Positions 3,002-48,543 are shown, counted from the stretch's first letter. The stretch is DNA of 64,000 nucleotides from Escherichia coli (GCF_009931435.1 NZ_CP043414.1), one strand, 5' to 3'. The notes: a model not told the origin generated them from the sequence alone. Numbers and translations: made by a program.

Positions 3002-5239
3002 GTGGACTGGCTTCTTGATGTTTTTGCAACCTGGCTATATGGCTTAAAAGTAATCGCGATAACGTTAGCGGTCATCATGTTCATCAGCGGGCTGGACGAT
3101 TTTTTTATTGATGTCGTCTACTGGGTACGCCGCATTAAACGCAAGTTGAGTGTTTATCGCCGCTACCCGCGAATGAGTTACCGCGAACTGTATAAACCAG
3201 ATGAAAAACCGTTAGCGATTATGGTTCCGGCGTGGAATGAAACGGGCGTCATCGGCAATATGGCCGAGCTGGCGGCGACCACGCTCGACTATGAAAACTA
3301 TCATATCTTTGTTGGCACCTACCCCAACGACCCCGATACTCAGCGTGATGTTGACGAAGTGTGCGCTCGCTTCCCAAACGTGCATAAGGTAGTCTGCGCT
3401 CGTCCTGGCCCCACCAGCAAAGCCGACTGCCTGAACAACGTGCTGGACGCCATCACCCAGTTTGAGCGTAGCGCCAATTTCGCTTTTGCTGGTTTTATTC
3501 TGCATGACGCCGAAGACGTAATTTCACCGATGGAATTGCGTCTGTTCAACTATCTGGTCGAGCGTAAAGATCTGATTCAGATCCCGGTATACCCATTCGA
3601 ACGCGAATGGACGCACTTCACCAGCATGACTTACATTGATGAGTTTTCAGAACTGCATGGCAAAGATGTTCCGGTGCGTGAAGCCCTCGCCGGACAGGTG
3701 CCCAGCGCAGGCGTCGGTACTTGTTTCAGCCGCCGCGCCGTGACCGCACTGTTAGCTGACGGTGACGGTATTGCTTTCGACGTGCAGAGTCTTACTGAAG
3801 ATTACGACATTGGTTTCCGCCTGAAAGAAAAAGGTATGACGGAAATTTTTGTCCGTTTTCCGGTGGTGGACGAAGCCAAAGAACGCGAGCAGCGTAAATT
3901 TTTACAGCACGCGCGGACGTCAAACATGATCTGCGTGCGCGAATATTTCCCCGATACCTTTTCGACGGCGGTTCGACAAAAGTCTCGCTGGATCATCGGC
4001 ATTGTTTTCCAGGGCTTTAAAACCCATAAATGGACCTCCAGCCTGACACTCAACTACTTTCTCTGGCGCGACCGCAAAGGGGCAATCAGTAACTTTGTCA
4101 GCTTCCTCGCGATGCTGGTGATGATCCAGCTTTTGCTGTTACTGGCGTATGAAAGTTTGTGGCCCGATGCCTGGCATTTCCTTTCTATTTTCAGCGGCAG
4201 CACATGGTTAATGACCCTGCTGTGGCTAAACTTTGGTTTGATGGTTAACCGCATCGTGCAGCGGGTGATTTTTGTCACTGGCTACTACGGTCTGACGCAG
4301 GGGCTGCTATCTGTCCTGCGTCTTTTCTGGGGCAACCTGATTAACTTCATGGCCAACTGGCGCGCGTTAAAACAGGTGCTTCAACACGGCGATCCACGTC
4401 GCGTCGCGTGGGATAAAACAACGCATGACTTCCCCAGCGTCACTGGCGATACCCGCTCGTTGCGCCCGTTAGGTCAAATTCTGCTGGAAAATCAGGTCAT
4501 CACTGAAGAACAACTCGATACGGCACTGCGTAATCGTGTCGAAGGTCTACGCCTGGGCGGTTCAATGCTGATGCAGGGGCTGATTAGCGCCGAACAGCTG
4601 GCACAGGCACTGGCAGAGCAAAACGGCGTGGCGTGGGAGTCCATCGATGCCTGGCAGATCCCTTCTTCGCTGATTGCCGCGATGCCGGCCTCCGTGGCGC
4701 TGCATTATGCGGTGCTACCGCTGCGTCTGGAAAATGATGAGTTAATTGTCGGCAGTGAAGATGGTATTGACCCGGTTTCGCTGGCAGCCCTGACGCGTAA
4801 AGTTGGACGCAAAGTGCGTTACGTCATTGTTCTGCGAGGACAAATTGTCACCGGATTACGTCACTGGTATGCACGTCGACGCGGTCACGATCCACGGGCA
4901 ATGTTGTACAATGCGGTTCAGCATCAGTGGCTCACGGAACAACAGGCCGGTGAAATCTGGCGGCAATATGTGCCGCATCAGTTCCTGTTCGCCGAAATAC
5001 TGACCACGCTCGGTCATATTAATCGTTCAGCAATTAACGTGTTGTTATTGCGCCATGAACGCAGTTCTCTGCCGCTCGGCAAGTTTTTGGTCACCGAAGG
5101 CGTTATCAGCCAGGAAACGTTGGATCGCGTCCTGACAATTCAGCGCGAATTACAAGTTTCGATGCAATCACTATTACTCAAAGCAGGTTTAAACACAGAA
5201 CAGGTTGCGCAACTGGAGTCCGAAAATGAAGGAGAATAA
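3002..5239 (+). CDS. nfrB: Phage N4 adsorption protein B (inner membrane glycosyltransferase family)
   Basis: ORF track 745 aa, alternative (GTG) start; recognised as NfrB; K-12 gene order. Confidence 0.88.
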   Translation: MDWLLDVFATWLYGLKVIAITLAVIMFISGLDDFFIDVVYWVRRIKRKLSVYRRYPRMSYRELYKPDEKPLAIMVPAWNETGVIGNMAELAATTLDYENYHIFVGTYPNDPDTQRDVDEVCARFPNVHKVVCARPGPTSKADCLNNVLDAITQFERSANFAFAGFILHDAEDVISPMELRLFNYLVERKDLIQIPVYPFEREWTHFTSMTYIDEFSELHGKDVPVREALAGQVPSAGVGTCFSRRAVTALLADGDGIAFDVQSLTEDYDIGFRLKEKGMTEIFVRFPVVDEAKEREQRKFLQHARTSNMICVREYFPDTFSTAVRQKSRWIIGIVFQGFKTHKWTSSLTLNYFLWRDRKGAISNFVSFLAMLVMIQLLLLLAYESLWPDAWHFLSIFSGSTWLMTLLWLNFGLMVNRIVQRVIFVTGYYGLTQGLLSVLRLFWGNLINFMANWRALKQVLQHGDPRRVAWDKTTHDFPSVTGDTRSLRPLGQILLENQVITEEQLDTALRNRVEGLRLGGSMLMQGLISAEQLAQALAEQNGVAWESIDAWQIPSSLIAAMPASVALHYAVLPLRLENDELIVGSEDGIDPVSLAALTRKVGRKVRYVIVLRGQIVTGLRHWYARRRGHDPRAMLYNAVQHQWLTEQQAGEIWRQYVPHQFLFAEILTTLGHINRSAINVLLLRHERSSLPLGKFLVTEGVISQETLDRVLTIQRELQVSMQSLLLKAGLNTEQVAQLESENEGE

Positions 5240-8198
5240 CCTTAATCGCGTCATCGGATGGTCTGGTTTACTGCTGACGTCTTTATTGAGTACCAGCGCA
5301 CTCGCAGACAATATCGGCACCAGCGCAGAAGAGCTGGGGCTGAGCGATTATCGCCATTTTGTTATTTATCCCCGTCTCGATAAGGCGCTGAAGGCACAGA
5401 AAAATAACGACGAAGCAACCGCCATCCGCGAATTTGAATATATACACCAGCAGGTGCCGGATAATATTCCGCTGACTTTATACCTTGCGGAAGCCTATCG
5501 CCATTTTGGTCATGATGACCGGGCGCGGCTGTTGCTTGAGGATCAACTGAAACGTCACCCAGGAGATGCCCGACTTGAGCGCAGTCTGGCGGCTATTCCA
5601 GTTGAAGTGAAAAGCGTTACGACTGTTGAAGAACTGCTTGCCCAGCAAAAAGCGTGCGACGCTGCGCCGACCCTGCGTTGTCGCAGTGAAGTCGGGCAGA
5701 ATGCCCTGCGGCTGGCACAATTACCTGTCGCCAGAGCGCAACTGAACGATGCGACGTTTGCTGCATCGCCGGAAGGAAAAACGCTGCGAACCGATCTGCT
5801 GCAACGCGCAATCTACCTGAAACAATGGTCCCAGGCAGATACGCTATACAATGAAGCACGCCAGCAGAACACATTAAGCGCGGCAGAACGCCGTCAGTGG
5901 TTTGACGTGCTTCTTGCCGGGCAGCTGGATGATCGGATCCTGGCGCTGCAATCACAGGGGATCTTCACCGATCCGCAGTCATATATTACTTACGCGACCG
6001 CGCTGGCTTATCGTGGCGAGAAAGCACGCCTCCAGCATTATCTCATTGAAAATAAGCCGCTGTTTACCACGGACGCACAAGAGAAAAGTTGGCTCTATCT
6101 GTTATCTAAATACAGCGCCAACCCCGTTCAGGCGTTGGCGAATTATACGGTACAGTTTGCCGATAACCGCCAGTATGTTGTTGGCGCGACGCTACCGGTG
6201 CTGTTAAAAGAAGGTCAGTACGACGCAGCGCAAAAACTGCTCGCCACCCTCCCCGCCAATGAAATGCTTGAGGAGCGTTATACCGTCAGCGTGGCGACTC
6301 ATAACAAGGCTGAAGCTCTGCGTCTGGCACGATTGCTGTATCAGCAAGAACCGACAAATCTTACCCGCCTGGATCAACTGACCTGGCAACTGATGCAGAA
6401 CGAGCAGTCACGCGAAGCTGCCGATTTGTTGCTGCAACGCTATCCCTTCCAGGGCGATGCGCGCGTCAGCCAGACTTTAATGACGCGACTAGCGTCTCTG
6501 CTGGAAAGTCATCCTTACCTGGCAACTCCGGCGAAGGTGGCGATTTTATCGAAACCCTTACCGCTGGCGGAGCAACGTCAGTGGCAAAGTCAGTTGCCGG
6601 GTATTGCAGATAATTGCCCAGCAATCGTTCGCTTGCTGGGCGATATGTCGCCTTCCTACGATGCCGCCGCCTGGAACCGTCTGGCAAAGTGTTATCGGGA
6701 CACGCTACCCGGTGTGGCGTTGTATGCATGGCTTCAGGCCGAACAACGGCAACCGAACGCCTGGCAACATCGTGCGGTAGCCTATCAGGCGTATCAGGTT
6801 GAGGATTACGCCACCGCACTGGCGGCCTGGCAGAAAATCAGTCTTCACGACATGAGCAATGAGGATCTGCTTGCTGCTGCCAATACCGCCCAGGCGGCAG
6901 GAAATGGTGCGGCTCGCGATCGCTGGCTTCAGCAGGCAGAACAACGTGGGCTGGGAAACAATGCCCTCTACTGGTGGCTGCATGCGCAACGTTACATTCC
7001 TGGTCAGCCGGAACTCGCACTGAACGATCTCACGCGCTCAATCAATATTGCGCCTTCTGCCAACGCTTACGTTGCGCGGGCGACAATTTATCGCCAACGT
7101 CATAATGTCCCGGCGGCGGTGAGTGATTTGCGCGCCGCTCTGGAACTGGAACCGAATAATAGCAACACCCAGGCAGCGCTCGGTTACGCCTTGTGGGATA
7201 GCGGTGATATCGCACAGTCGCGGGAAATGCTCGAACAGGCGCATAAAGGGCTACCGGACGATCCGGCACTTATCCGACAACTGGCCTACGTGAACCAGCG
7301 TCTGGATGATATGCCTGCGACGCAGCACTACGCCCGTCTGGTGATTGATGACATTGATAATCAGGCGCTGATAACCCCACTGACCCCAGAGCAAAATCAG
7401 CAACGCTTCAATTTCCGCCGTCTGCATGAGGAGGTCGGTCGCCGCTGGACGTTCAGTTTCGATTCTTCTATCGGCTTGCGTTCCGGCGCAATGAGTACCG
7501 CTAACAATAATGTTGGCGGCGCAGCGCCAGGGAAAAGCTATCGTAGCTACGGGCAACTGGAAGCCGAGTACCGCATCGGACGCAATATGCTGCTGGAAGG
7601 CGACCTGCTCTCGGTTTACAGCCGTGTATTTGCCGATACCGGAGAAAACGGGGTGATGATGCCGGTGAAAAATCCGATGTCCGGCACCGGTCTGCGCTGG
7701 AAGCCGCTGCGCGATCAGATCTTTTTCCTCGCCGTCGAACAGCAATTGCCGCTGAACGGACAAAACGGCGCATCCGATACCATGCTGCGCGCCAGCGCCT
7801 CATTCTTTAATGGCGGCAAATACAGCGACGAATGGCACCCGAACGGTTCAGGCTGGTTTGCCCAAAACCTGTACCTCGATGCGGCGCAATATGTCCGCCA
7901 GGATATTCAGGCGTGGACGGCAGATTATCGCTTAAGCTGGCATCAGAAGGTGGCGAACGGACAGACTATTGAGCCTTACGCTCACGTTCAGGACAACGGT
8001 TATCGTGATAAAGGCACTCAGGGCGCGCAGCTTGGCGGTGTCGGGGTCCGCTGGAATATCTGGACCGGCGAGACGCACTACGACGCCTGGCCGCACAAAG
8101 TCAGTCTCGGCGTCGAATATCAACATACCTTTAAGGCGATTAATCAACGTAACGGAGAGCGCAACAACGCGTTTCTCACCATTGGAGTGCACTGGTAA
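5226..8198 (+). CDS. nfrA: Phage N4 receptor outer membrane protein NfrA (TPR-containing)
   Basis: ORF track 5205..8198; internal Met (MKENNL) gives 990 aa; signal peptide; overlaps nfrB end. Confidence 0.88.
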   Translation: MKENNLNRVIGWSGLLLTSLLSTSALADNIGTSAEELGLSDYRHFVIYPRLDKALKAQKNNDEATAIREFEYIHQQVPDNIPLTLYLAEAYRHFGHDDRARLLLEDQLKRHPGDARLERSLAAIPVEVKSVTTVEELLAQQKACDAAPTLRCRSEVGQNALRLAQLPVARAQLNDATFAASPEGKTLRTDLLQRAIYLKQWSQADTLYNEARQQNTLSAAERRQWFDVLLAGQLDDRILALQSQGIFTDPQSYITYATALAYRGEKARLQHYLIENKPLFTTDAQEKSWLYLLSKYSANPVQALANYTVQFADNRQYVVGATLPVLLKEGQYDAAQKLLATLPANEMLEERYTVSVATHNKAEALRLARLLYQQEPTNLTRLDQLTWQLMQNEQSREAADLLLQRYPFQGDARVSQTLMTRLASLLESHPYLATPAKVAILSKPLPLAEQRQWQSQLPGIADNCPAIVRLLGDMSPSYDAAAWNRLAKCYRDTLPGVALYAWLQAEQRQPNAWQHRAVAYQAYQVEDYATALAAWQKISLHDMSNEDLLAAANTAQAAGNGAARDRWLQQAEQRGLGNNALYWWLHAQRYIPGQPELALNDLTRSINIAPSANAYVARATIYRQRHNVPAAVSDLRAALELEPNNSNTQAALGYALWDSGDIAQSREMLEQAHKGLPDDPALIRQLAYVNQRLDDMPATQHYARLVIDDIDNQALITPLTPEQNQQRFNFRRLHEEVGRRWTFSFDSSIGLRSGAMSTANNNVGGAAPGKSYRSYGQLEAEYRIGRNMLLEGDLLSVYSRVFADTGENGVMMPVKNPMSGTGLRWKPLRDQIFFLAVEQQLPLNGQNGASDTMLRASASFFNGGKYSDEWHPNGSGWFAQNLYLDAAQYVRQDIQAWTADYRLSWHQKVANGQTIEPYAHVQDNGYRDKGTQGAQLGGVGVRWNIWTGETHYDAWPHKVSLGVEYQHTFKAINQRNGERNNAFLTIGVHW

Positions 8199-33329: not shown

Positions 33330-37010
<3,681 letters not shown>

Positions 37011-37036
<26 letters not shown>

Positions 37037-37556
37037 TCAGCAACCCCGGTATCAGTTCATCCAGCGCGGCTGCTTTGTTCATGGCTTTGATGATATCCCG
37101 TTTCAGGAAATCAACATGTCGGTTTTCCAGTTCCGGAAAACGCCGCTGCACCGACAGGGGGATCCCGTCGAGAATACTGGCAATTTCACCTGCGATCCGC
37201 GACAGCACGAAAGTACAGAATGCGGTTTCCACCACTTCAGCGGAGTCTCTGGCATTTTTCAGCTCCTGTGCGTCGGCCTGCGCACGCGTAAGTCGATGGC
37301 GTTCGTACTCAATAGTCCCTGGCTGGAGATCTGTCTCGCTGGCCTGCCGCAGTTCTTCAACTTCCCGGCGCAGCTTTTCGTTCTCAATTTCAGCATCCCT
37401 TTCGGCATACCATTTTATGACGGCGGCAGAGTCATAAAGCACCTCATTACCCTTGCCACCGCCTCGCAGAACGGGCATTCCCTGTTCCTGCCAGTTCTGA
37501 ATGGTACGGATACTCGCACCGAAAATGTCAGCCAGCTGCTTTTTGTTGACTTCCAT
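37011..37556 (-). CDS. Nu1: Terminase small subunit Nu1
   Basis: ORF track 181 aa; N-terminal HTH; immediately next to cos. Confidence 0.9.
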
Positions 37557-37733
37557 TGCTCATTCCACGGACAAAAACAGAGAAAGGAAACGACAGAGGC
37601 CAAAAAGCTCGCTTTCAGCACCTGTCGTTTCCTTTCTTTTCAGGGGGTATTTTAAATAAATACATTAAGTTACGACGAAGAAGAACGGAAACACCTTAAA
37701 CCGGAAAATTTTCATAAATAGCGAAAACCCGCG

Positions 37734-37746
37734 AGGTCGCCGCCCC
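37734..37746 (-). other. cos cohesive-end site (cosN; cosB lies between it and Nu1)
   Basis: Reverse complement of 37560..37760 matches the lambda left-end sequence GGGCGGCGACCTCGCGGGTTTTCGCTATTTATGAAAATTTTCCGG... by recall; about 190 bp from the Nu1 start. Confidence 0.75.
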
Positions 37747-37944
37747 GTAACCTGTCGGATCGCCGGAAAGGACCCACAAAATGATAATAATTATCATCTA
37801 CATGTCACAACGTGCATCTACGCCATCAAACCACGTCAAATAATCAATTATGACGCAGGTATCGTATTAATTGATCTGCATCAACTTAACGTAAAAACAA
37901 CTTCAGACAATACAAATCAGCGACACTGAATACGGGGCAACCTC

Positions 37945-38139
37945 ATGTCAACGAAGAACAGAACCCGCAGAACAACAACCCGCAACATCCGCTTTCCTAA
38001 CCAAATGATTGAACAAATTAACATCGCTCTTGAGCAAAAAGGGTCCGGGAATTTCTCAGCCTGGGTCATTGAAGCCTGCCGTCGGAGGCTAACGTCAGAA
38101 AAGAGAGCATATACATCAATTAAAAGTGATGAAGAATGA
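37945..38139 (+). CDS. ylcI: Small hypothetical protein (YlcI-like)
   Basis: ORF track 64 aa; position between cos and bor as in lambda/DLP12. Confidence 0.55.
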   Translation: MSTKNRTRRTTTRNIRFPNQMIEQINIALEQKGSGNFSAWVIEACRRRLTSEKRAYTSIKSDEE

Positions 38140-38303
38140 ACATCCCGCGTTCTTCCCTCCGAACAGGACGATATTGTAAATTCACTTAATTACGAGGGCA
38201 TTGCAGTAATTGAGTTGCAGTTTTACCACTTTCCTGACAGTGACAGACTGCGTGTTGGCTCTGTCACAGGTTAAGTAGTTTGAATGATTAGCAGTTATGG
38301 TGA

Positions 38304-38510
38304 TCAGTCAACCACCAGGGAATAATCCTTCATATTATTATCGTGCTTCACCAACGCTGCCTCAATTGCCCTGAATGCTTCCAGAGACACCTTATGTTCT
38401 ATACATGCAATTACAACATCAGGGTAACTCATAGAAATGATGCTATTAAGCATATTTTTTACACGAATCAGATCCACGGAGGGATCATCAGCAGATTGTT
38501 CTTTATTCAT
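38304..38510 (-). CDS. ybcW: Small hypothetical protein (YbcW-like)
   Basis: ORF track 68 aa; conserved position near cos. Confidence 0.55.
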
Positions 38511-38672
38511 TTTGTCGCTCCATGCGCTTGCTCTTCATCTAGCGGTTAAAATATTACTTCAAATCTTTCTGTATGAAGGTTTGAGCACGTTGGCCTTACA
38601 TACATCTGTCGGTTGTATTTCCCTCCAGAATGCCAGCAGGACCGCACTTTGTTACGCAACCAATACTATTAA

Positions 38673-39206
38673 TTGAAAACATTCCTAATATTTGACATAA
38701 ATCATCAACAAAACACAAAGAGGTCAGACCAGATTGAAGCGATAAAAACGATAATGCAAACTACGCGCCCTCGTATCACATGGAAGGTTTTACCAATGGC
38801 TCAGGTTGCCATTTTTAAAGAAATATTCGATCAAGTGCGAAAAGATTTAAACTGTGAATTGTTTTATTCTGAACTAAAACGTCACAATGTCTCACATTAT
38901 ATTTACTATCTAGCCACAGATAATATTCACATTGTGTTAGAAAACGATAACACCGTGTTAATAAAAGGACTTAAAAAGGTTGTAAATGTTAAATTCTCAA
39001 GAAATACGCATCTTATAGAAACGTCCTATGATAGGTTGAAATCAAGAGAAATCACATTTCAGCAATACAGGGAAAATCTTGCTAAAGCAGGAGTTTTCCG
39101 ATGGATTACAAATATCCACGAACATAAAAGATATTACTATACCTTTGATAATTCATTACTATTTACTGAGAGCATTCAGAACACTACACAAATCTTTCCA
39201 CGCTAA
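38673..39206 (+). CDS. ybcV: Hypothetical protein (YbcV-like)
   Basis: ORF track 177 aa; AT-rich; conserved position next to bor. Confidence 0.55.
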
Positions 39207-39496
39207 ATCATAACGTCCGGTTTCTTCCGTGTCAGCACCGGGGTGTTGGCATAATACAATACATGTACGCGCTAAACCCTGTGTGCATCGTTTTTAATTA
39301 TTCCCGGACACTCCCGCAGAGAAGTTCCCCGTCAGGGCTGTGGACATAGTTAATCCGGGAATACAATGACGATTCATCGCACCTGGCATACATTAATAAA
39401 TATTAACAATATGAAATTTCAACTCATTGTTTAGGGTTTGTTTAATTTTCTACACATACGATTCTGCGAACTTCAAAAAGCATCGGGAATAACACC

Positions 39497-39790
39497 ATGA
39501 AAAAAATGCTACTCGCTACTGCGCTGGCCCTGCTTATTACAGGATGTGCTCAACAGACATTTACTGTTCAAAACAAACAGACAGCAGTAGCACCAAAGGA
39601 AACCATCACCCATCATTTCTTCGTTTCTGGAATTGGGCAGAAGAAAACTGTCGATGCAGCTAAAATTTGTGGCGGCGCAGAAAATGTTGTTAAAACAGAA
39701 ACCCAGCAAACATTCGTAAATGGATTGCTCGGTTTTATTACTTTAGGCATTTATACTCCGCTGGAAGCGCGTGTGTATTGCTCAAAATAA
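39497..39790 (+). CDS. bor: Bor lipoprotein (serum resistance)
   Basis: ORF track 97 aa; lipobox LITGC; recognised Bor sequence. Confidence 0.9.
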   Translation: MKKMLLATALALLITGCAQQTFTVQNKQTAVAPKETITHHFFVSGIGQKKTVDAAKICGGAENVVKTETQQTFVNGLLGFITLGIYTPLEARVYCSK

Positions 39791-39821
39791 TTGCATGAGT
39801 TGCCCATCGATATGGTCAGCT

Positions 39822-40283
39822 CTATCTGCACTGCTCATTAATATACTTCTGGGTTCCTTCCAGTTGTTTTTGCATAGTGATCAGCCTCTCTCTGAGGGTG
39901 AAATAATCCCGTTCAGCGGTGTCTGCCAGTCGGGGGGAGGCTGCATTATCCACGCCGGAGGCCGTGGTGGCTTCACGCACTGACTGACAGACTGCTTTGA
40001 TGTGCAACCGACGACGACCAGCGGCAACATCATCACGCAGAGCATCATTTTCAGCTTTCGCATCAGCTAACTCCTTCGTGTATTTTGCATCGAGCGCAGC
40101 AACATCACGCTGACGCATCTGCATGTCAGTAATTGCCGCGTTCGCTAGCTTCAGTTCTCTGGCATTTTTGTCGCGCTGGACTTTGTAGGCGATTGCGTTA
40201 TCACGGTAATGATTGACCGCCCATGACAGGCTGACGATGATGCAGATAATCAGAGCGGATATAATCGCGGTTACTCTGCTCAC
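39822..40283 (-). CDS. Rz: Spanin inner membrane subunit Rz
   Basis: ORF track 39822..40295; 153-aa product if started at the GTG overlapping the R stop (GTGA); N-terminal TM plus coiled coil. Confidence 0.85.
39881..40063 (-). CDS. Rz1: Spanin outer membrane lipoprotein Rz1, embedded in Rz in another frame
   Basis: ORF track 60 aa; lipobox VVGC; proline-rich; nested inside Rz. Confidence 0.85.
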
Positions 40284-40777
40284 TGTTGCCCCCACAAACA
40301 GACTTCACGCTCAATCTCACGACGAGTCATCAGGCCTTTCCATTGCTTACCGCCAGCGTATGTCCAGCGACGCAGCTGATCACATGCGCCTTTGATATCG
40401 CCCTGGTTTATTTTGCGAAGAAGCGTCGATGTTCTAAAATTGCCAGCACCCACGTTGTAAACGAATGAGTAAAGAGCGCCGCGCGTTGTTTCCGGTATAT
40501 CGACTTTGATATACGGGTTAATTTGTCTGGCGACAGTGGCAAGGTCTTTATTCAAGAGTGCTTTGCATTCTGCTTTGGTATACGTTTTACCGAGCATGAT
40601 GTCTTTTCCGGTGTGTCCGTGACATACAGTCCATACACCAACAATATCTTTGTATGGTATGTAGCTGACACCTTCCAGACCATCGTTACCACTTGGGCCA
40701 GTGATTAACACTGATGCTATAGCAATTGCTCCGCCACCAATAGCAGCAGCAACGGCTTTTCGTAATGATGGAGGCAT
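40280..40777 (-). CDS. R: SAR endolysin (lysozyme with N-terminal signal-arrest-release segment, phage 21 R-like)
   Basis: ORF track 165 aa; hydrophobic Gly/Ala-rich N-terminus followed by lysozyme-type domain. Confidence 0.88.
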
Positions 40778-40992
40778 TATTCACCTCTCGCAGCCTTGCG
40801 CTTATCTTCTTTAATCTTGAAATAAAGGTTTGTCAGGTACGTCAGCAGGCCAAATACCAGGCTACCCAGCACACCTATTGCTGCCCACTGTGAGGGAGTG
40901 ACTTTATCTAGCAGCTGTAAAAACCAGTACCCGGCACTACCTGCTGAGGTGCCATAGGCGACACCCGTTGTTAACTTATCCATGGATTTCAT
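40777..40992 (-). CDS. S: Pinholin (phage 21 S-like) with dual-start motif MKSM
   Basis: ORF track 71 aa; two TM segments; Met1 and Met4 starts. Confidence 0.88.
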
Positions 40993-41140: not shown

Positions 41141-41564
41141 CTGTGTGACGAAGTAACCACTCTTAACAGCATAACCAATTTTTTACGTACGTAAACCACT
41201 AAATGATATTTGAGAGAATGCTACCGAGTATTGAAAACACCACTACAAATACATAAGCAAATCTCAACAAATAACCAAAAAATAATTTCCAGTGTTATTT
41301 TTAGCCGGTTTAAATTGAACCTTCAAATTATAGAACACTTATAAATAACAGCCGTTAATATAAATTGGCTAATAGATTTATTTTTATTCAGCCAAGAGCC
41401 ATGAATAGGATTCGATAGAAAAAAGTTCAGATAAAAATAGAGATCTACTTCACAAATCAAACGAGAAACCAAAACTTACATCTTGAAATAATCACATTGA
41501 TTAGATGAATATTTATCGCGCAGTGACATCATTTTTTAATAATAGTTCAAAAAAAGGGCTCACG

Positions 41565-42662
41565 ATGAAAAAATTAACAGTGGCAATTTCTGCTGTAGCT
41601 GCATCAGTACTGATGGCGATGTCTGCTCAGGCAGCTGAAATTTATAATAAAGACAGTAACAAGCTGGATCTGTACGGGAAAGTTAATGCTAAGCACTACT
41701 TCTCCTCTAATGATGCAGATGATGGTGATACTACTTATGCCCGTCTTGGCTTCAAAGGTGAAACCCAAATCAACGATCAACTGACTGGTTTCGGTCAGTG
41801 GGAATATGAATTCAAAGGCAACCGCGCTGAATCTCAAGGTTCCTCCAAAGATAAAACCCGTCTTGCCTTCGCTGGCCTGAAATTCGGTGACTACGGCTCC
41901 ATCGATTACGGCCGTAACTACGGTGTAGCATACGACATCGGTGCGTGGACTGACGTCCTGCCAGAATTCGGTGGTGACACTTGGACTCAAACCGACGTGT
42001 TCATGACTCAACGTGCAACTGGTGTTGCAACCTATCGTAACAACGACTTCTTTGGTCTGGTTGATGGTCTGAACTTTGCTGCTCAGTACCAAGGCAAAAA
42101 CGATCGTAGCGATTTCGATAACTACACTGAAGGTAACGGTGATGGCTTCGGTTTCTCTGCTACCTATGAATACGAAGGATTCGGTATCGGTGCAACTTAT
42201 GCGAAATCTGATCGTACCGACACTCAAGTTAATGCAGGGAAAGTTCTTCCTGAAGTATTTGCTTCCGGTAAAAATGCAGAAGTTTGGGCCGCAGGTCTGA
42301 AATATGACGCTAACAACATTTACCTGGCCACTACCTATTCTGAAACCCAGAATATGACTGTATTTGCTGATCACTTCGTTGCTAATAAAGCCCAAAACTT
42401 CGAAGCTGTTGCACAATATCAGTTCGATTTCGGTCTGCGTCCGTCCGTTGCTTACCTGCAATCTAAAGGTAAGGATCTTGGAGTATGGGGCGATCAGGAC
42501 TTAGTCAAATATGTTGATGTAGGTGCAACCTATTACTTCAACAAAAATATGTCTACTTTCGTTGATTACAAAATCAACCTGCTTGACAAAAATGACTTCA
42601 CTAAAGCACTCGGTGTAAGCACTGATGACATCGTTGCTGTAGGTCTGGTTTACCAGTTCTAA
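41565..42662 (+). CDS. nmpC: Outer membrane porin NmpC (OmpC/OmpD family), intact
   Basis: ORF track 41505..42662; start at MKKLTVAIS with signal peptide; C-terminal Phe; no IS interruption. Confidence 0.9.
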
Positions 42663-46762: not shown

Positions 46763-48289
46763 TTAGAAATAAATCTCACCATCAACCATATATTTGAGAG
46801 CACTTATCGCCTGCTGGGCGGATATTACTTTCATTAAAGGATAGTGTTTAAAAACAATGCCATTCATAAAATAGATATCACAGGTTTTATTATCCGTATT
46901 AATTATGATTTTTTCGAATGTTTTATAGGCAAGTGTACGGCATAACTCTCGTCCATTTTTACTGGTTAAGTCAATAGCATAAAAATCACTGAATGAATTT
47001 ACACCTTTACTCTTCAAAGTTTTCAATGATACCGAAGCCCTTCGTAATTCCTTATCTAATAGTCTTATTTTCTCTGCTATAGCGGTAACTTCAGGCGCGA
47101 CAGACAATGCAACGATTAAATTATTAATTTTCATCTGAAGCTCAATAATTTTTAACTCTAAAGTTTCATTAGCATCTTTCTTGTTTTCAACTGGTTGAAT
47201 TTTGCTACAATTAAAAAGCAATTCATTAATGATATTATAATCAACCAAATCTCTTTTTATTGATGGCCTGTCACATCGATGTAATCTTCTCATCGGACAA
47301 ACATAATAGCCATGCAAACTTCCAGATACCGCATGAACAATCATGGTATTACCACAAGCCTCACACTTCATAACTGTTCGAAGTAGATTTATTAGCATAG
47401 GATTCTTGCTACTATTGCTAATACCAAAAGGTGCCAACCGAATTTCCTGTACAGCGTAAAACAAATCATCTGATATGACTCTGGGATAATAGCCAGCGAT
47501 TTCACTTATCCCTTTCCCTCTTGCACGATATGAAGGTACGCAAATACCTATCAGAGCTTTATTCGCTAATAATTTTTCAATTACAGAAGGTCCCCATGCA
47601 CTTTCTTTTCCTGAGAAATTCTTTACAGCATGATCATTTAAATACTTGGCTATTGCATTCAATGAGCGCCTTTCCATCCTGAGTTTAAAAATTAGCTCAA
47701 TAGTTTTCACCCTGTCTGGGTCTGGAACAAAAGCCGTTCTTTTGTCATCTAAGGAGAGCCATCTCGGATAAGACGCCGTCATAATCGTACCTGATTCCAG
47801 TGCATCCTGCCGTTTTTTCTTCCATGATAATTTAACCCGACTTGACTTTATCTCGCTTTCTTCATTTGCCCTTTGTGCTATAAGTATGGCTTTTATTAAT
47901 GAATATGGCTCATTCAAAGAGTCAATATTATAGACTGTATTGTCGCAAAGAGTTATAACATCAATACCGTGATTCAAAATCAATTTCAGACGTTCAATCG
48001 CTTCACCGACTTTTTCTCTTGAAAGTCTGTCCAGACTTTCAACTAACAATGTAGTTCCTGGCAATATATAACCATGCTCTATAGCATCTAAAAATTCCGA
48101 AAAAGCTCCTGATTGTGCATGCTTTCCTTTGAATGCACTTAATCCTAAATCTTCATATGTTATGGTATCAAGATAATAATCACTATTTACCTTTAACCAT
48201 TCAGCAATAAGTCTTCTCTGTCGGTTTAATGAGTCGCCAGACATCTGACCTGGTGATGAAAATCGCATATATGCTATGGCTTTTTTCAT
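46763..48289 (-). CDS. ybcK: Large serine recombinase (YbcK-like)
   Basis: ORF track 508 aa; N-terminal resolvase catalytic motif (YMRFSS), Cys-rich zinc ribbon, C-terminal coiled coil. Confidence 0.82.
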   Translation of the reverse strand: MKKAIAYMRFSSPGQMSGDSLNRQRRLIAEWLKVNSDYYLDTITYEDLGLSAFKGKHAQSGAFSEFLDAIEHGYILPGTTLLVESLDRLSREKVGEAIERLKLILNHGIDVITLCDNTVYNIDSLNEPYSLIKAILIAQRANEESEIKSSRVKLSWKKKRQDALESGTIMTASYPRWLSLDDKRTAFVPDPDRVKTIELIFKLRMERRSLNAIAKYLNDHAVKNFSGKESAWGPSVIEKLLANKALIGICVPSYRARGKGISEIAGYYPRVISDDLFYAVQEIRLAPFGISNSSKNPMLINLLRTVMKCEACGNTMIVHAVSGSLHGYYVCPMRRLHRCDRPSIKRDLVDYNIINELLFNCSKIQPVENKKDANETLELKIIELQMKINNLIVALSVAPEVTAIAEKIRLLDKELRRASVSLKTLKSKGVNSFSDFYAIDLTSKNGRELCRTLAYKTFEKIIINTDNKTCDIYFMNGIVFKHYPLMKVISAQQAISALKYMVDGEIYF

Positions 48290-48543
48290 GGTGACACCTG
48301 CTAACGTATGCTTTTATAAACCTTAGTGGTGGGATATAATTTTTGTTTATTTTTTATTTAAAAAGACAATTAAGGTCACATTATCTTGAATATACAACAA
48401 TAATCGTATTGCAATTTTCTTACGCCATAATCTTGAAAGCACAAAAGAATACATAAAAAATAAAGACATTAACAAAAAGCATAAAACGAGGCTCATATAA
48501 ATATAAGAGCCTCCATATTTTAGTCGTTTAGAAACAAATTATT

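What the first reader, a model, noticed from the sequence alone, without database searches (positions are those of the whole stretch)
37945..39206. Three uncharacterised small genes between cos and bor
Three small ORFs (64, 68 and 177 aa) on alternating strands occupy the AT-rich segment between cos and bor. None has a function I can assign. This end-of-genome position is a common cargo site in lambdoid phages.
Basis: partly seen in the sequence, partly recalled or inferred. Interest (0 to 1): 0.3.

Follow-up and report, generated by a model that had tools for sequence, protein, structure and literature searches.

The report
Lambda's known ylcI, ybcW, ybcV genes
The three small ORFs between cos and bor are real but already catalogued accessory genes of phage lambda and the E. 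coli DLP12 prophage (ylcI, ybcW/p79, ybcV/p78), dispensable for phage growth and still without a tested function.

Summary
ORFs of 64, 68 and 177 codons lie on +/-/+ strands in an AT-rich stretch between cosN (37734-37745) and bor (39497-39790). They are not new: the segment is 98.2% identical to the right end of phage lambda and 99.9% identical to E. coli K-12 DLP12. The ORFs are ylcI (YlcI/YnfO family, DUF3950), ybcW (lambda p79) and ybcV (lambda p78, DUF1398; paralogue YdfO solved as PDB 2HH8).

Refinements:
- The 177-aa ORF is over-extended; the gene most likely starts at ATG 38796 (136 aa).
- The three are separable modules. ylcI travels with cos. ybcW+ybcV form a 1.1-kb optional cassette, absent from about 30 of 80 related loci.
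- Compared with the tandem ynfO-ydfO arrangement, a 609-bp ybcW-bearing segment interrupts an ancestral two-gene unit.
- ylcI and ybcV are under purifying selection; ybcW only weakly.
- YlcI looks like an Arc-type ribbon-helix-helix DNA binder. The evidence is weak and consistent, not proven.
- The database labels "head protein" and "envelope protein" for p78 are unsupported.

Overall this is ordinary and of low interest.

The parts
37734..37745 (.). cosN 12-nt cohesive-end sequence (AGGTCGCCGCCC, reverse complement of the lambda left end)
   Evidence: Read directly. maps window 37746 to lambda 48502.
37701..38156 (.). Conserved cos-ylcI block that stays together even when the Nu1/cosB side is replaced
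   Evidence: ylcI lies 389 bp from the Nu1 start in most loci. In L075 and L078 (Nu1 only 41% identical) homology starts at window 37701.
37781..37797 (.). Perfect palindrome ATGATAAT-A-ATTATCAT between cosN and ylcI. It resembles a Fur box and is a candidate protein-binding site; untested.
   Evidence: I4. The Fur-box resemblance is from my own knowledge.
37843..37875 (.). 13-nt inverted repeat (85% complementary, 7-nt spacer) 70-100 bp upstream of ylcI. Candidate operator; untested.
   Evidence: I1.
37945..38139 (+). ylcI: 64-aa basic protein (pI 10.5) of the YlcI/YnfO family (DUF3950), probably ribbon-helix-helix. Antisense to the late operon. Not annotated in RefSeq lambda.
   Evidence: searches (phrog_949; PGAP names it ylcI; pN/pS 0.06-0.2), 40/42, 46, 47, 51, 72.
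38108..38716 (.). 609-bp segment that replaces 50 bp of the tandem ynfO-ydfO arrangement. It supplies the last ~10 codons of ylcI, all of ybcW and the ybcW upstream region.
   Evidence: blastn of the window against PhiR70_1, L086.
38304..38510 (-). ybcW (lambda p79): 68-aa acidic protein (pI 4.9), narrow family, the only one of the three co-oriented with late transcription.
   Evidence: phrog_657, E 1e-46; pN/pS 0.5-0.7; CRISPRi polarity.
38157..39273 (.). 1,117-bp optional cassette (ybcW + ybcV), replaced by about 55 bp in relatives where bor directly follows ylcI.
   Evidence: L046, L049 and about 30 other loci.
38718..38734 (.). PdhR box AAGAGGTCAGACCAGAT (reverse complement of the published ATCTGGTCTGACCTCTT). 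It is homologous to the last codons (QVRPD-stop) of the 77-aa ynfO.
   Evidence: Sequence. The box and RT-qPCR data are from PMC7660256.
38796..39206 (+). ybcV (lambda p78): 136-aa DUF1398 protein (pI 9.2). The 177-aa form from TTG 38673 is an over-extension.
   Evidence: the domain starts at residue 49 of the 177; 2HH8 YdfO, E 5e-71, aligns from M42; the PGAP and CPT annotations use the 136-aa start.
39263..39288 (+). Terminator-like hairpin followed by a T-run downstream of ybcV. It coincides with the right edge of the optional cassette.
39497..39790 (+). bor lipoprotein gene (context; the right-hand neighbour).

Best explanation
The segment is the standard right end of a lambda/DLP12-type prophage and carries three already catalogued, non-essential accessory genes. 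(1) ylcI is a cos-linked gene under purifying selection. It encodes a small basic protein that is most likely an Arc-like ribbon-helix-helix dimeric DNA binder, and I infer it acts as a transcriptional regulator or autoregulator. It is transcribed away from cos, antisense to the late operon. (2) ybcV encodes a 136-aa DUF1398 protein, is also antisense to the late operon like bor, and ends at its own terminator-like hairpin. (3) ybcW encodes a small acidic protein on the late-transcript strand. ylcI and ybcV descend from a two-gene ynfO-ydfO unit (small DNA binder followed by a DUF1398 protein). In this lineage a 609-bp ybcW-bearing segment has split that unit. ybcW+ybcV now behave as a 1.1-kb AT-rich moron that is gained and lost as a block. 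Published work shows the nearly identical K-12 copies respond to host factors: PdhR activates them, Hha binds the region and induces ybcW, and T4 MotB, which alters H-NS-dependent repression, up-regulates them. Shown: identity, gene boundaries, modularity, selection, dispensability. Inferred: the RHH fold and regulator role of YlcI, expression in the lysogen from their own promoters, and any benefit to the host. The biochemical activities of YbcV and YbcW remain unknown.
For: Identity. The segment is 98.2% identical to lambda and 99.6% to phage PhiR29, and 99.9% to K-12 DLP12 ylcI-ybcW-ybcV. Family hits are, and the PDB 2HH8 YdfO match has E = 5e-71.

Gene start. Five observations point to ATG 38796. 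DUF1398 begins at residue 49 of the 177. 2HH8 aligns from M42. The PGAP and CPT annotations use the 136-aa start. The 41 extra codons carry only non-synonymous differences. Those codons also overlap the PdhR box and the remnant of the ynfO 3' end.

Modularity. In 80 IMG/VR loci ylcI is fixed next to cos, while ybcW+ybcV are jointly present in about 43 loci and absent in about 30. The breakpoints are at 38157/39273. ybcW occurs without ybcV in L010 and L073. ydfO occurs without ybcW directly after the 77-aa ynfO.

Selection. The most diverged ylcI allele has 14 synonymous and 3 non-synonymous differences. ybcV shows 4-5 synonymous to 1 non-synonymous. ybcW shows 6-9 synonymous to 17-18 non-synonymous.

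Dispensability and orientation. p78 and bor score non-essential. p79 is known to be non-essential and scores as essential only through CRISPRi polarity on the PR' transcript.

Host control. A PdhR site lies between ybcV and ybcW, and both mRNAs drop about 10-fold in a pdhR deletion. Hha binds the region and induces ybcW. MotB up-regulates both. ybcW-ylcI is reported as a convergent excludon.

RHH reading of YlcI. The AF2 model shows an N-terminal coil followed by two helices (19-32, 34-63) joined at G33-S34-G35, with pLDDT 66. The only Foldseek PDB hits are RHH-type DNA binders (TCP domain, ArtA). hhalign places NIRFP...G33 in register with Arc NLRWP...G30; 5 of 300 shuffles reach that score. 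The pI is 10.5.
Against: No experiment in the searchable literature gives a function for any of the three. The RHH assignment is statistically weak: Foldseek E-values exceed 1, hhalign probability is 2%, no RHH Pfam family hits at E <= 1, and a PDB profile search finds no RHH protein. The promoter scan found no more sigma-70-like sites than shuffled sequence (5 against 6.0 expected) and none on the + strand upstream of ylcI or ybcV, so independent expression in the lysogen rests on published data for the DLP12 copies. The proteins were not detected in one proteomics study. The weak constraint on ybcW leaves open that it is not a functional protein. The direction of the 609-bp/50-bp replacement (insertion or deletion) is not proven.
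Confidence: 0.8

Rival explanations
1. YlcI/YnfO plus YbcV/YdfO form a toxin-antitoxin-like or abortive-infection/defence pair. The RHH protein would be the antitoxin and autorepressor, and the DUF1398 protein the toxin or effector.
For: In the tandem arrangement a small basic RHH-like protein with a variable C-terminal tail precedes the DUF1398 gene on the same strand, with a gap of 42-57 nt. That arrangement is widespread in E. coli. The location is a prophage cargo site.
Against: No PADLOC defence model hits meaningfully (best E = 0.0012, a partial match to a restriction enzyme). No toxin or antitoxin Pfam family hits. ylcI occurs alone in many phages: 155 phage records carry ylcI against 43 with ybcV. 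In the window the two genes are separated and ylcI has a different tail, yet ybcV is intact and under purifying selection. YdfO alone was produced in quantity for NMR (2HH8), which argues against strong toxicity; this last point is an inference.
Confidence: 0.08
2. YlcI is an accessory DNA-packaging or cos-function protein, which would explain why it is always linked to cosN/cosQ.
For: The spacing to cos is invariant, and the 456-bp block is retained even when Nu1 is swapped. The protein is basic and probably binds DNA. Palindromes lie between cosN and ylcI.
Against: The gene is antisense to the late operon, so the late transcript cannot express it. By established knowledge, lambda packaging is reconstituted with terminase and IHF without such a factor; I did not test this here. 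The linkage can be explained by hitch-hiking with the cis-essential cosQ-cosN sequences.
Confidence: 0.07
3. ybcW is not a functional protein gene. It would be a conserved open frame or RNA-level element on the late transcript, kept open by recent common ancestry.
For: pN/pS is 0.5-0.7 against the 78%-identical alleles. The family is extremely narrow and, once nanopore-control junk is removed, has only a handful of real divergent members. There is no Pfam or NCBIfam model. The protein was not detected.
Against: The frame is open in all alleles, including ones 22-45% diverged at the protein level (P0317, L010, L073) with a conserved core YPDVV.ACI...[13 protein letters not shown]. The PHROG match is full length. 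The transcript is regulated. No Rfam family matches.
Confidence: 0.15
4. p78 is a structural (head or envelope) protein of 177 aa, as some database records state.
For: PHROG 413 and RefSeq label it 'head protein', and older records 'putative envelope protein'.
Against: The gene is antisense to the late structural operon. It is absent from about 30 of 80 close relatives that keep the same Nu1/A genes. It scores non-essential. It has no hydrophobic segment (GRAVY -0.46). The N-terminal 41 codons are not part of the domain or of the solved homologue.
Confidence: 0.03

Closest known systems
Phage lambda right end: bor - lambdap78 - lambdap79 - (unannotated ylcI ORF, lambda 48303..48109) - cos
   Same: Same genes, order, strands and spacing. 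DNA identity is 98.2% and protein identity 99-100%.
   Different: The window is an integrated prophage with DLP12/21-type lysis genes (RrrD and EssD types) rather than lambda S/R. It has a few point differences; for example the long-ORF start is TTG here and GTG in lambda.
E. coli K-12 DLP12 cryptic prophage genes ylcI, ybcW, ybcV (next to borD and nohD)
   Same: 99.9% DNA identity over 1,750 bp. PGAP names and gene boundaries are identical to my calls, including the 136-aa ybcV.
   Different: DLP12 has a truncated terminase and is defective. The window keeps intact Nu1 (181 aa) and A (641 aa).
Qin prophage / phage PhiR70_1 tandem ynfO-ydfO
   Same: The first ~54 codons of ylcI are 97% identical to ynfO. 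ybcV is 78% (protein) and 80% (DNA) identical to ydfO. The position next to Nu1/cos is the same.
   Different: There the two genes are adjacent and co-oriented, ynfO is 77 aa with a different tail, and ybcW is absent. The window has a 609-bp ybcW-bearing replacement between them.
YdfO solution structure, PDB 2HH8 (DUF1398, structural-genomics target)
   Same: Full-length alignment with E = 5e-71. It gives a fold for YbcV.
   Different: No function was attached to the structure. I could not run a fold comparison because the single-sequence model failed.
Arc/Mnt repressors of phage P22 (ribbon-helix-helix)
   Same: Small size and a basic N-terminal arm. The NIRFP motif aligns with the Arc NLRWP beta-strand, including the DNA-contacting N and R. 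Helix A is followed by a glycine turn and helix B.
   Different: There is no significant sequence or structure score. Dimerisation and DNA binding are untested, and no operator is known. This is 'looks like', not demonstrated membership.

Membership tests
DUF1398 (PF07166; YbcV/YdfO) | Pfam HMM above the gathering score over the whole model | tested here: met
   157.3 bits against a cutoff of 22; model positions 1-119 of 119; residues 49-167 of the 177-aa ORF.
DUF1398 (PF07166; YbcV/YdfO) | Full-length similarity to the solved member YdfO (2HH8) | tested here: met
   E = 5.3e-71; residues 1-136 align to 6-141.
YlcI/YnfO family (NF041551; PF13132 DUF3950) | NCBIfam and Pfam models above their curated cutoffs | tested here: met
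   NF041551 scores 37.6 against 30. PF13132 scores 72.8 against 25. PGAP names the 99.9%-identical K-12 copy ylcI.
YbcW / lambda p79 (PHROG 657) | Full-length match to the family profile and to named ybcW | tested here: met
   phrog_657 E = 1.1e-46 over positions 1-68 of 68. 99% identical to lambda p79. PGAP 'protein YbcW'.
Ribbon-helix-helix (Arc/MetJ/CopG superfamily), for YlcI | Significant sequence-profile match to an RHH family | tested here: not met
   No RHH Pfam family at E <= 1. The PDB profile search finds no RHH protein. hhalign against CopG finds nothing.
Ribbon-helix-helix (Arc/MetJ/CopG superfamily), for YlcI | Strand - helix A - glycine turn - helix B topology in register with a known member | tested here: inconclusive
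   AF2 gives coil 1-18, H19-32 and H34-63 at pLDDT 66. hhalign against Arc is in register but weak, with 5 of 300 shuffles as good. Foldseek hits are only RHH-type proteins, but at E > 1.
Ribbon-helix-helix (Arc/MetJ/CopG superfamily), for YlcI | Obligate dimer with an antiparallel beta-ribbon that binds DNA repeats | not testable with these tools
   Only a single-chain prediction was available. Candidate repeats lie at 37781-37797 and 37843-37875.
Moron / lysogenic-conversion cassette | Presence/absence polymorphism among otherwise near-identical phages, with sharp boundaries | tested here: met
   ybcW+ybcV are present in about 43 loci and absent in about 30. The boundaries are at 38157/39273.
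Moron / lysogenic-conversion cassette | Base composition distinct from the flanking phage genes | tested here: met
   GC is 0.32-0.42 inside against about 0.54 in Nu1/A.
Moron / lysogenic-conversion cassette | Own promoter and terminator, and expression from the repressed prophage | tested here: inconclusive
   A terminator-like hairpin lies at 39263-39288. No promoter was predicted above chance. Transcripts and PdhR/Hha regulation are reported for the DLP12 copies.
Type II toxin-antitoxin pair | Adjacent co-oriented antitoxin-toxin genes, and a recognisable toxin family | tested here: not met
   In the window the genes are 656 bp apart with ybcW between them. No toxin, antitoxin or defence profile hits. 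Adjacency exists only in the Qin-type arrangement.
Virion 'head protein' / 'envelope protein' (database labels of p78) | Late-operon orientation, presence in all phages sharing the head module, and a signal peptide or transmembrane segment for an envelope role | tested here: not met
   The gene is antisense to the late genes. It is absent from about 30 relatives with the same Nu1. It is hydrophilic, with GRAVY -0.46, and non-essential.

The most novel reading that the evidence does not exclude
YlcI/YnfO (an Arc-like RHH DNA binder) and the DUF1398 protein YbcV/YdfO form a conserved two-component prophage module. In the lambda/DLP12 lineage, insertion of ybcW rewired its expression: the former ynfO 3' end became a pyruvate-responsive PdhR site. 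The module would give the lysogen a conditional phenotype, such as phage exclusion or metabolic or stress adaptation. This would assign a first function to two of the last unassigned genes of phage lambda.
Probability: 0.12. Interest if true: 0.5.

Novelty: already known. Interest (0 to 1): 0.15.

Why it matters
It matters little as a discovery. These ORFs have been in the lambda and E. coli K-12 annotations for decades and are present in most E. coli genomes (4,107 of 5,426 complete genomes have a match). The residual value lies elsewhere. They are among the few lambda genes still without a function. The analysis here yields cheap, testable hypotheses: YlcI as an Arc-like DNA binder, and ylcI/ybcV as a split ynfO-ydfO unit. 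It also yields annotation corrections: the 136-aa start for p78, the missing ylcI in RefSeq lambda, and the unsupported 'head protein' label.

Tried and rejected
- AlphaFold2 of YbcV from a single sequence failed (pLDDT 41). No fold search was made for DUF1398, and both prediction jobs are spent.
- The large protein searches returned mostly ~3.5-kb ENA contigs with frameshifted copies of the lambda right end. These are most likely nanopore lambda-control reads. They were useless for building deep alignments, and alignment A1 shows the frameshift junk.
- PADLOC gave no meaningful defence hit.
- Rfam gave no RNA family in 37000-40000.
- The sigma-70 promoter scan found no enrichment over shuffles.
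- Sequence searches of the PDB with YlcI and YbcW gave only chance hits: ribosomal uL16 and an enoyl-CoA hydratase, at E of 0.1 to about 1.5.
- hhalign of YlcI against CopG found nothing.
- Liu et al. 2013 (lambda ribosome profiling) and Casjens & Hendrix 2015 are not held in the library, so I could not check published translation data for these ORFs.
- Fetching the K-12 Qin region by coordinates hit the wrong region because the record is rotated. PhiR70_1 served instead.
- The TraDIS 'essential' call for ydfO was set aside. It appears only in the list of genes found essential by TraDIS alone, and ydfO has a close paralogue in an AT-rich region.

Full report

Yes. GC content falls from about 0.54 in the terminase genes to 0.32-0.45 across 37600-39700. 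The lambda cohesive-end sequence (AGGTCGCCGCCC) is at 37734-37745, and bor is at 39497-39790. The window runs straight through cos, so this is an integrated prophage. The late genes (S, R, Rz ... Nu1, A) are all on the minus strand.

**2. What the ORFs are**

The 1.9-kb segment is 98.2% identical to the right end of phage lambda and 99.6% identical to phage PhiR29. It is 99.9% identical to the ylcI-ybcW-ybcV segment of the E. coli K-12 DLP12 cryptic prophage.

- **The 64-aa ORF is ylcI.** It matches PF13132 (DUF3950) at 72.8 bits against a cutoff of 25, NF041551 (YlcI/YnfO) at 37.6 against 30, and phrog_949. RefSeq lambda does not annotate it, but other lambda records and PGAP do.
- **The 68-aa ORF is lambda p79, or ybcW.** It matches phrog_657 at E = 1e-46 and has no Pfam or NCBIfam model.
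- **The 177-aa ORF is lambda p78, or ybcV.** It matches DUF1398 at 157 bits. Its paralogue YdfO has a solution structure, PDB 2HH8 (E = 5e-71).

The wider window is an intact DLP12-like lambdoid prophage. It has lambda-type Nu1/A, RrrD/EssD-type lysis genes and a porin gene. At least 80% of its central 18 kb occurs in 324 of 5,426 complete E. coli genomes.

**3. Gene boundaries**

The 177-aa form is almost certainly an over-extension.
- The DUF1398 model begins at residue 49.
- 2HH8 aligns from Met42.
- The PGAP and CPT annotations use the ATG at 38796, giving 136 aa.
- That ATG has a GGAAGG 6-11 nt upstream, whereas the TTG at 38673 has no Shine-Dalgarno sequence.
- The 41 extra codons carry only non-synonymous differences among alleles.
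- They also overlap a published PdhR box and a remnant of another gene's 3' end.

**4. The three ORFs are not one unit**

In 80 related IMG/VR loci, ylcI keeps an invariant distance of 389 bp from the Nu1 start in most loci. It stays with cos even where Nu1 is only 37-53% identical. ybcW and ybcV are present together in about 43 loci and jointly absent in about 30, where bor follows ylcI directly. blastn places the breakpoints at 38157 and 39273. This 1,117-bp block is replaced by about 55 bp, and its right edge lies in a terminator-like hairpin.

ybcW also occurs without ybcV, followed by cold-shock-type cargo (L010 and L073). ydfO/ybcV occurs without ybcW. Among sequenced phages, ylcI homologues are in 155 records and ybcV homologues in only 43.

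**5. Evolutionary relationship of ylcI and ybcV**

In phage PhiR70_1, which shares the arrangement of the K-12 Qin prophage, a 77-aa ynfO is followed 42-57 nt later, on the same strand, by ydfO. Window 37500-38107 aligns at 97% to the region up to ynfO codon ~54. Window 38717-39381 aligns at 80% to the ynfO 3' end plus ydfO. The 609 bp between them (38108-38716) replaces 50 bp of the tandem arrangement. This segment supplies a new ylcI tail, all of ybcW and the ybcW upstream region.

The PdhR box reported between ybcV and ybcW (ATCTGGTCTGACCTCTT, PMC7660256) lies at window 38718-38734. It corresponds to the last codons (Q-V-R-P-D-stop) of the 77-aa ynfO. The tandem form appears common in E. 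coli: up to 2,358 genomes cover at least 80% of it, though some split copies may have been joined by the tool. The three-gene form covers at least 80% in 953 genomes. The direction of the event is not proven. The conserved 77-aa tail favours insertion into an ancestral two-gene unit.

**6. Coding evidence**

| Gene | Synonymous : non-synonymous differences | pN/pS | Reading |
|---|---|---|---|
| ylcI | 14 : 3 in the most diverged allele | 0.06; other alleles mostly 0.1-0.2 | Strong purifying selection |
| ybcV | 4-5 : 1 | ~0.05-0.1 | Purifying selection |
| ybcW | 6-9 : 17-18 against the 78%-identical alleles | 0.5-0.7 | Weak constraint |

The ybcW frame stays open in all alleles and a core motif is kept.

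The ybcW family is very narrow. Of 191 representative hits, most are frameshifted copies of the lambda right end on ~3.5-kb contigs. I interpret these as nanopore lambda-control reads.

**7. Expression and dispensability, from the literature**

- A CRISPRi map of lambda scores bor and p78 as non-essential. It scores p79 as 'essential' only because a roadblock there is polar on the 27-kb PR' late transcript, and the authors state that p79 is known to be non-essential (PMC10695390). This fits the geometry: ybcW is the only one of the three on the late-transcript strand.
- For the DLP12 copies, PdhR binds the ybcV-ybcW intergenic region, and both mRNAs fall about 10-fold in a pdhR deletion (PMC7660256).
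- Hha binds the region and induces ybcW (PMC2408971).
- T4 MotB, which alters H-NS-dependent repression, up-regulates both genes more than 1000-fold in BL21(DE3) (PMC7827196).
- ybcW-ylcI is listed as a convergent excludon (PMC12288877).
- Transcripts changed under microaerobiosis, but the proteins were not detected (PMC8910356).
- YnfO and YdfO were still in the E. coli y-ome in 2024 (PMC11551758).
- No paper among those found assigns a function.

**8. What the proteins might do**

*YlcI.* It is basic (pI 10.5). Residues 1-50 are nearly invariant and the C-terminal tail is variable. AlphaFold2 gives an N-terminal coil and two helices joined at G33-S34-G35, with pLDDT 66. The only Foldseek PDB hits are ribbon-helix-helix-type DNA binders (plant TCP domains, ArtA), all at E > 1.

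hhalign puts T12-R-N-I-R-F-P...G33 in register with the Arc repressor segment Q9-F-N-L-R-W-P...G30. That segment covers the Arc beta-strand, which carries its DNA-contacting N and R, plus helix A and the turn. The score is weak: 5 of 300 shuffles reach it. The Arc sequence was verified against PDB 1ARQ.

No RHH Pfam model or PDB profile hit supports the assignment. I rate the RHH reading as likely but unproven, at about 0.55. Two inverted repeats between cosN and ylcI are candidate operators.

*YbcV.* It is a basic, soluble DUF1398 protein (pI 9.2, GRAVY -0.46). Nothing supports the 'envelope' or 'head protein' labels. It is antisense to the late operon, optional among phages with the same head genes, non-essential and hydrophilic.

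*YbcW.* It is a small acidic protein (pI 4.9) of unknown fold.

**9. Rivals**

- **A toxin-antitoxin or defence pair (YnfO + YdfO).** The tandem layout suggests it. However, no defence or toxin profile matches. ylcI frequently stands alone. YdfO alone was evidently produced in quantity for NMR.
- **A packaging role for YlcI.** This would explain the linkage to cos. However, the gene is antisense to the late transcript, and hitch-hiking with the cis-acting cos elements explains the linkage equally well.
- **ybcW as a non-functional ORF.** This remains possible, at about 0.15.

**10. Verdict**

The feature is already known: lambda p78 and p79 and the E. coli y-genes ylcI, ybcW and ybcV. It is ordinary and of low interest. 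The useful by-products are annotation corrections and two testable hypotheses: an Arc-like YlcI, and a split ynfO-ydfO unit.

Noticed in passing
Protein hits P0001-P0240 and P0241-P0387: The public protein collections hold thousands of ~3.5-kb ENA contigs, plus records labelled Staphylococcus aureus, Veillonella and the plant Dovyalis caffra. These encode error-laden, frameshifted copies of lambda ylcI and p79. They are most likely Oxford Nanopore lambda-control amplicon reads. They inflate apparent family sizes and pollute alignments (see A1).
   Followed up: partly
window 37781-37797 and 37843-37875: A perfect palindrome, ATGATAAT-A-ATTATCAT, resembles a Fur box. A 13-nt inverted repeat also lies between cosN and the ylcI start. 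No function is known to me; either could be a regulator-binding site.
   Followed up: no
L075 (IMGVR_UViG_2724679293_000033), locus 3757-4687: The cos-proximal ylcI block (window 37765-38156) is duplicated in tandem, giving two ylcI copies before bor.
   Followed up: no
L037 (IMGVR_UViG_2541047434_000017), locus 5408-6718: A roughly 1.3-kb insertion lies between ybcV and bor at the position of window 39351. It is probably an IS element.
   Followed up: no
L010, locus 4446-6011 (also L073): A 78%-identical ybcW is followed not by ybcV but by minus-strand small ORFs. These include a CspA-family cold-shock protein (71 aa) and a YnfN-like ORF. The same slot therefore carries different cargo in different prophages.
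   Followed up: partly
window 40280-40992 and 41505-42662: The lysis genes are DLP12/phage-21 type (165-aa RrrD-like lysozyme, 71-aa EssD-like holin), while Nu1/A are lambda type. A 385-aa porin-like ORF sits beside a very AT-rich stretch (GC 0.28 at about 41200-41500). This is a mosaic, intact relative of DLP12.
   Followed up: partly
window 38596-38718 (-): A 40-aa ORF annotated in some lambda records (for example OM418626, CPT_lambdaimm434_073) lies in the ybcW-ybcV intergenic region, across the PdhR box. I saw no family support and regard it as probably spurious.
   Followed up: no
NC_001416 (RefSeq lambda) 48109-48303: RefSeq lambda lacks the ylcI CDS, although the ORF is 100% identical in protein to the window's and is under purifying selection. 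RefSeq also labels p78 'head protein' with the long 177-aa start.
   Followed up: yes
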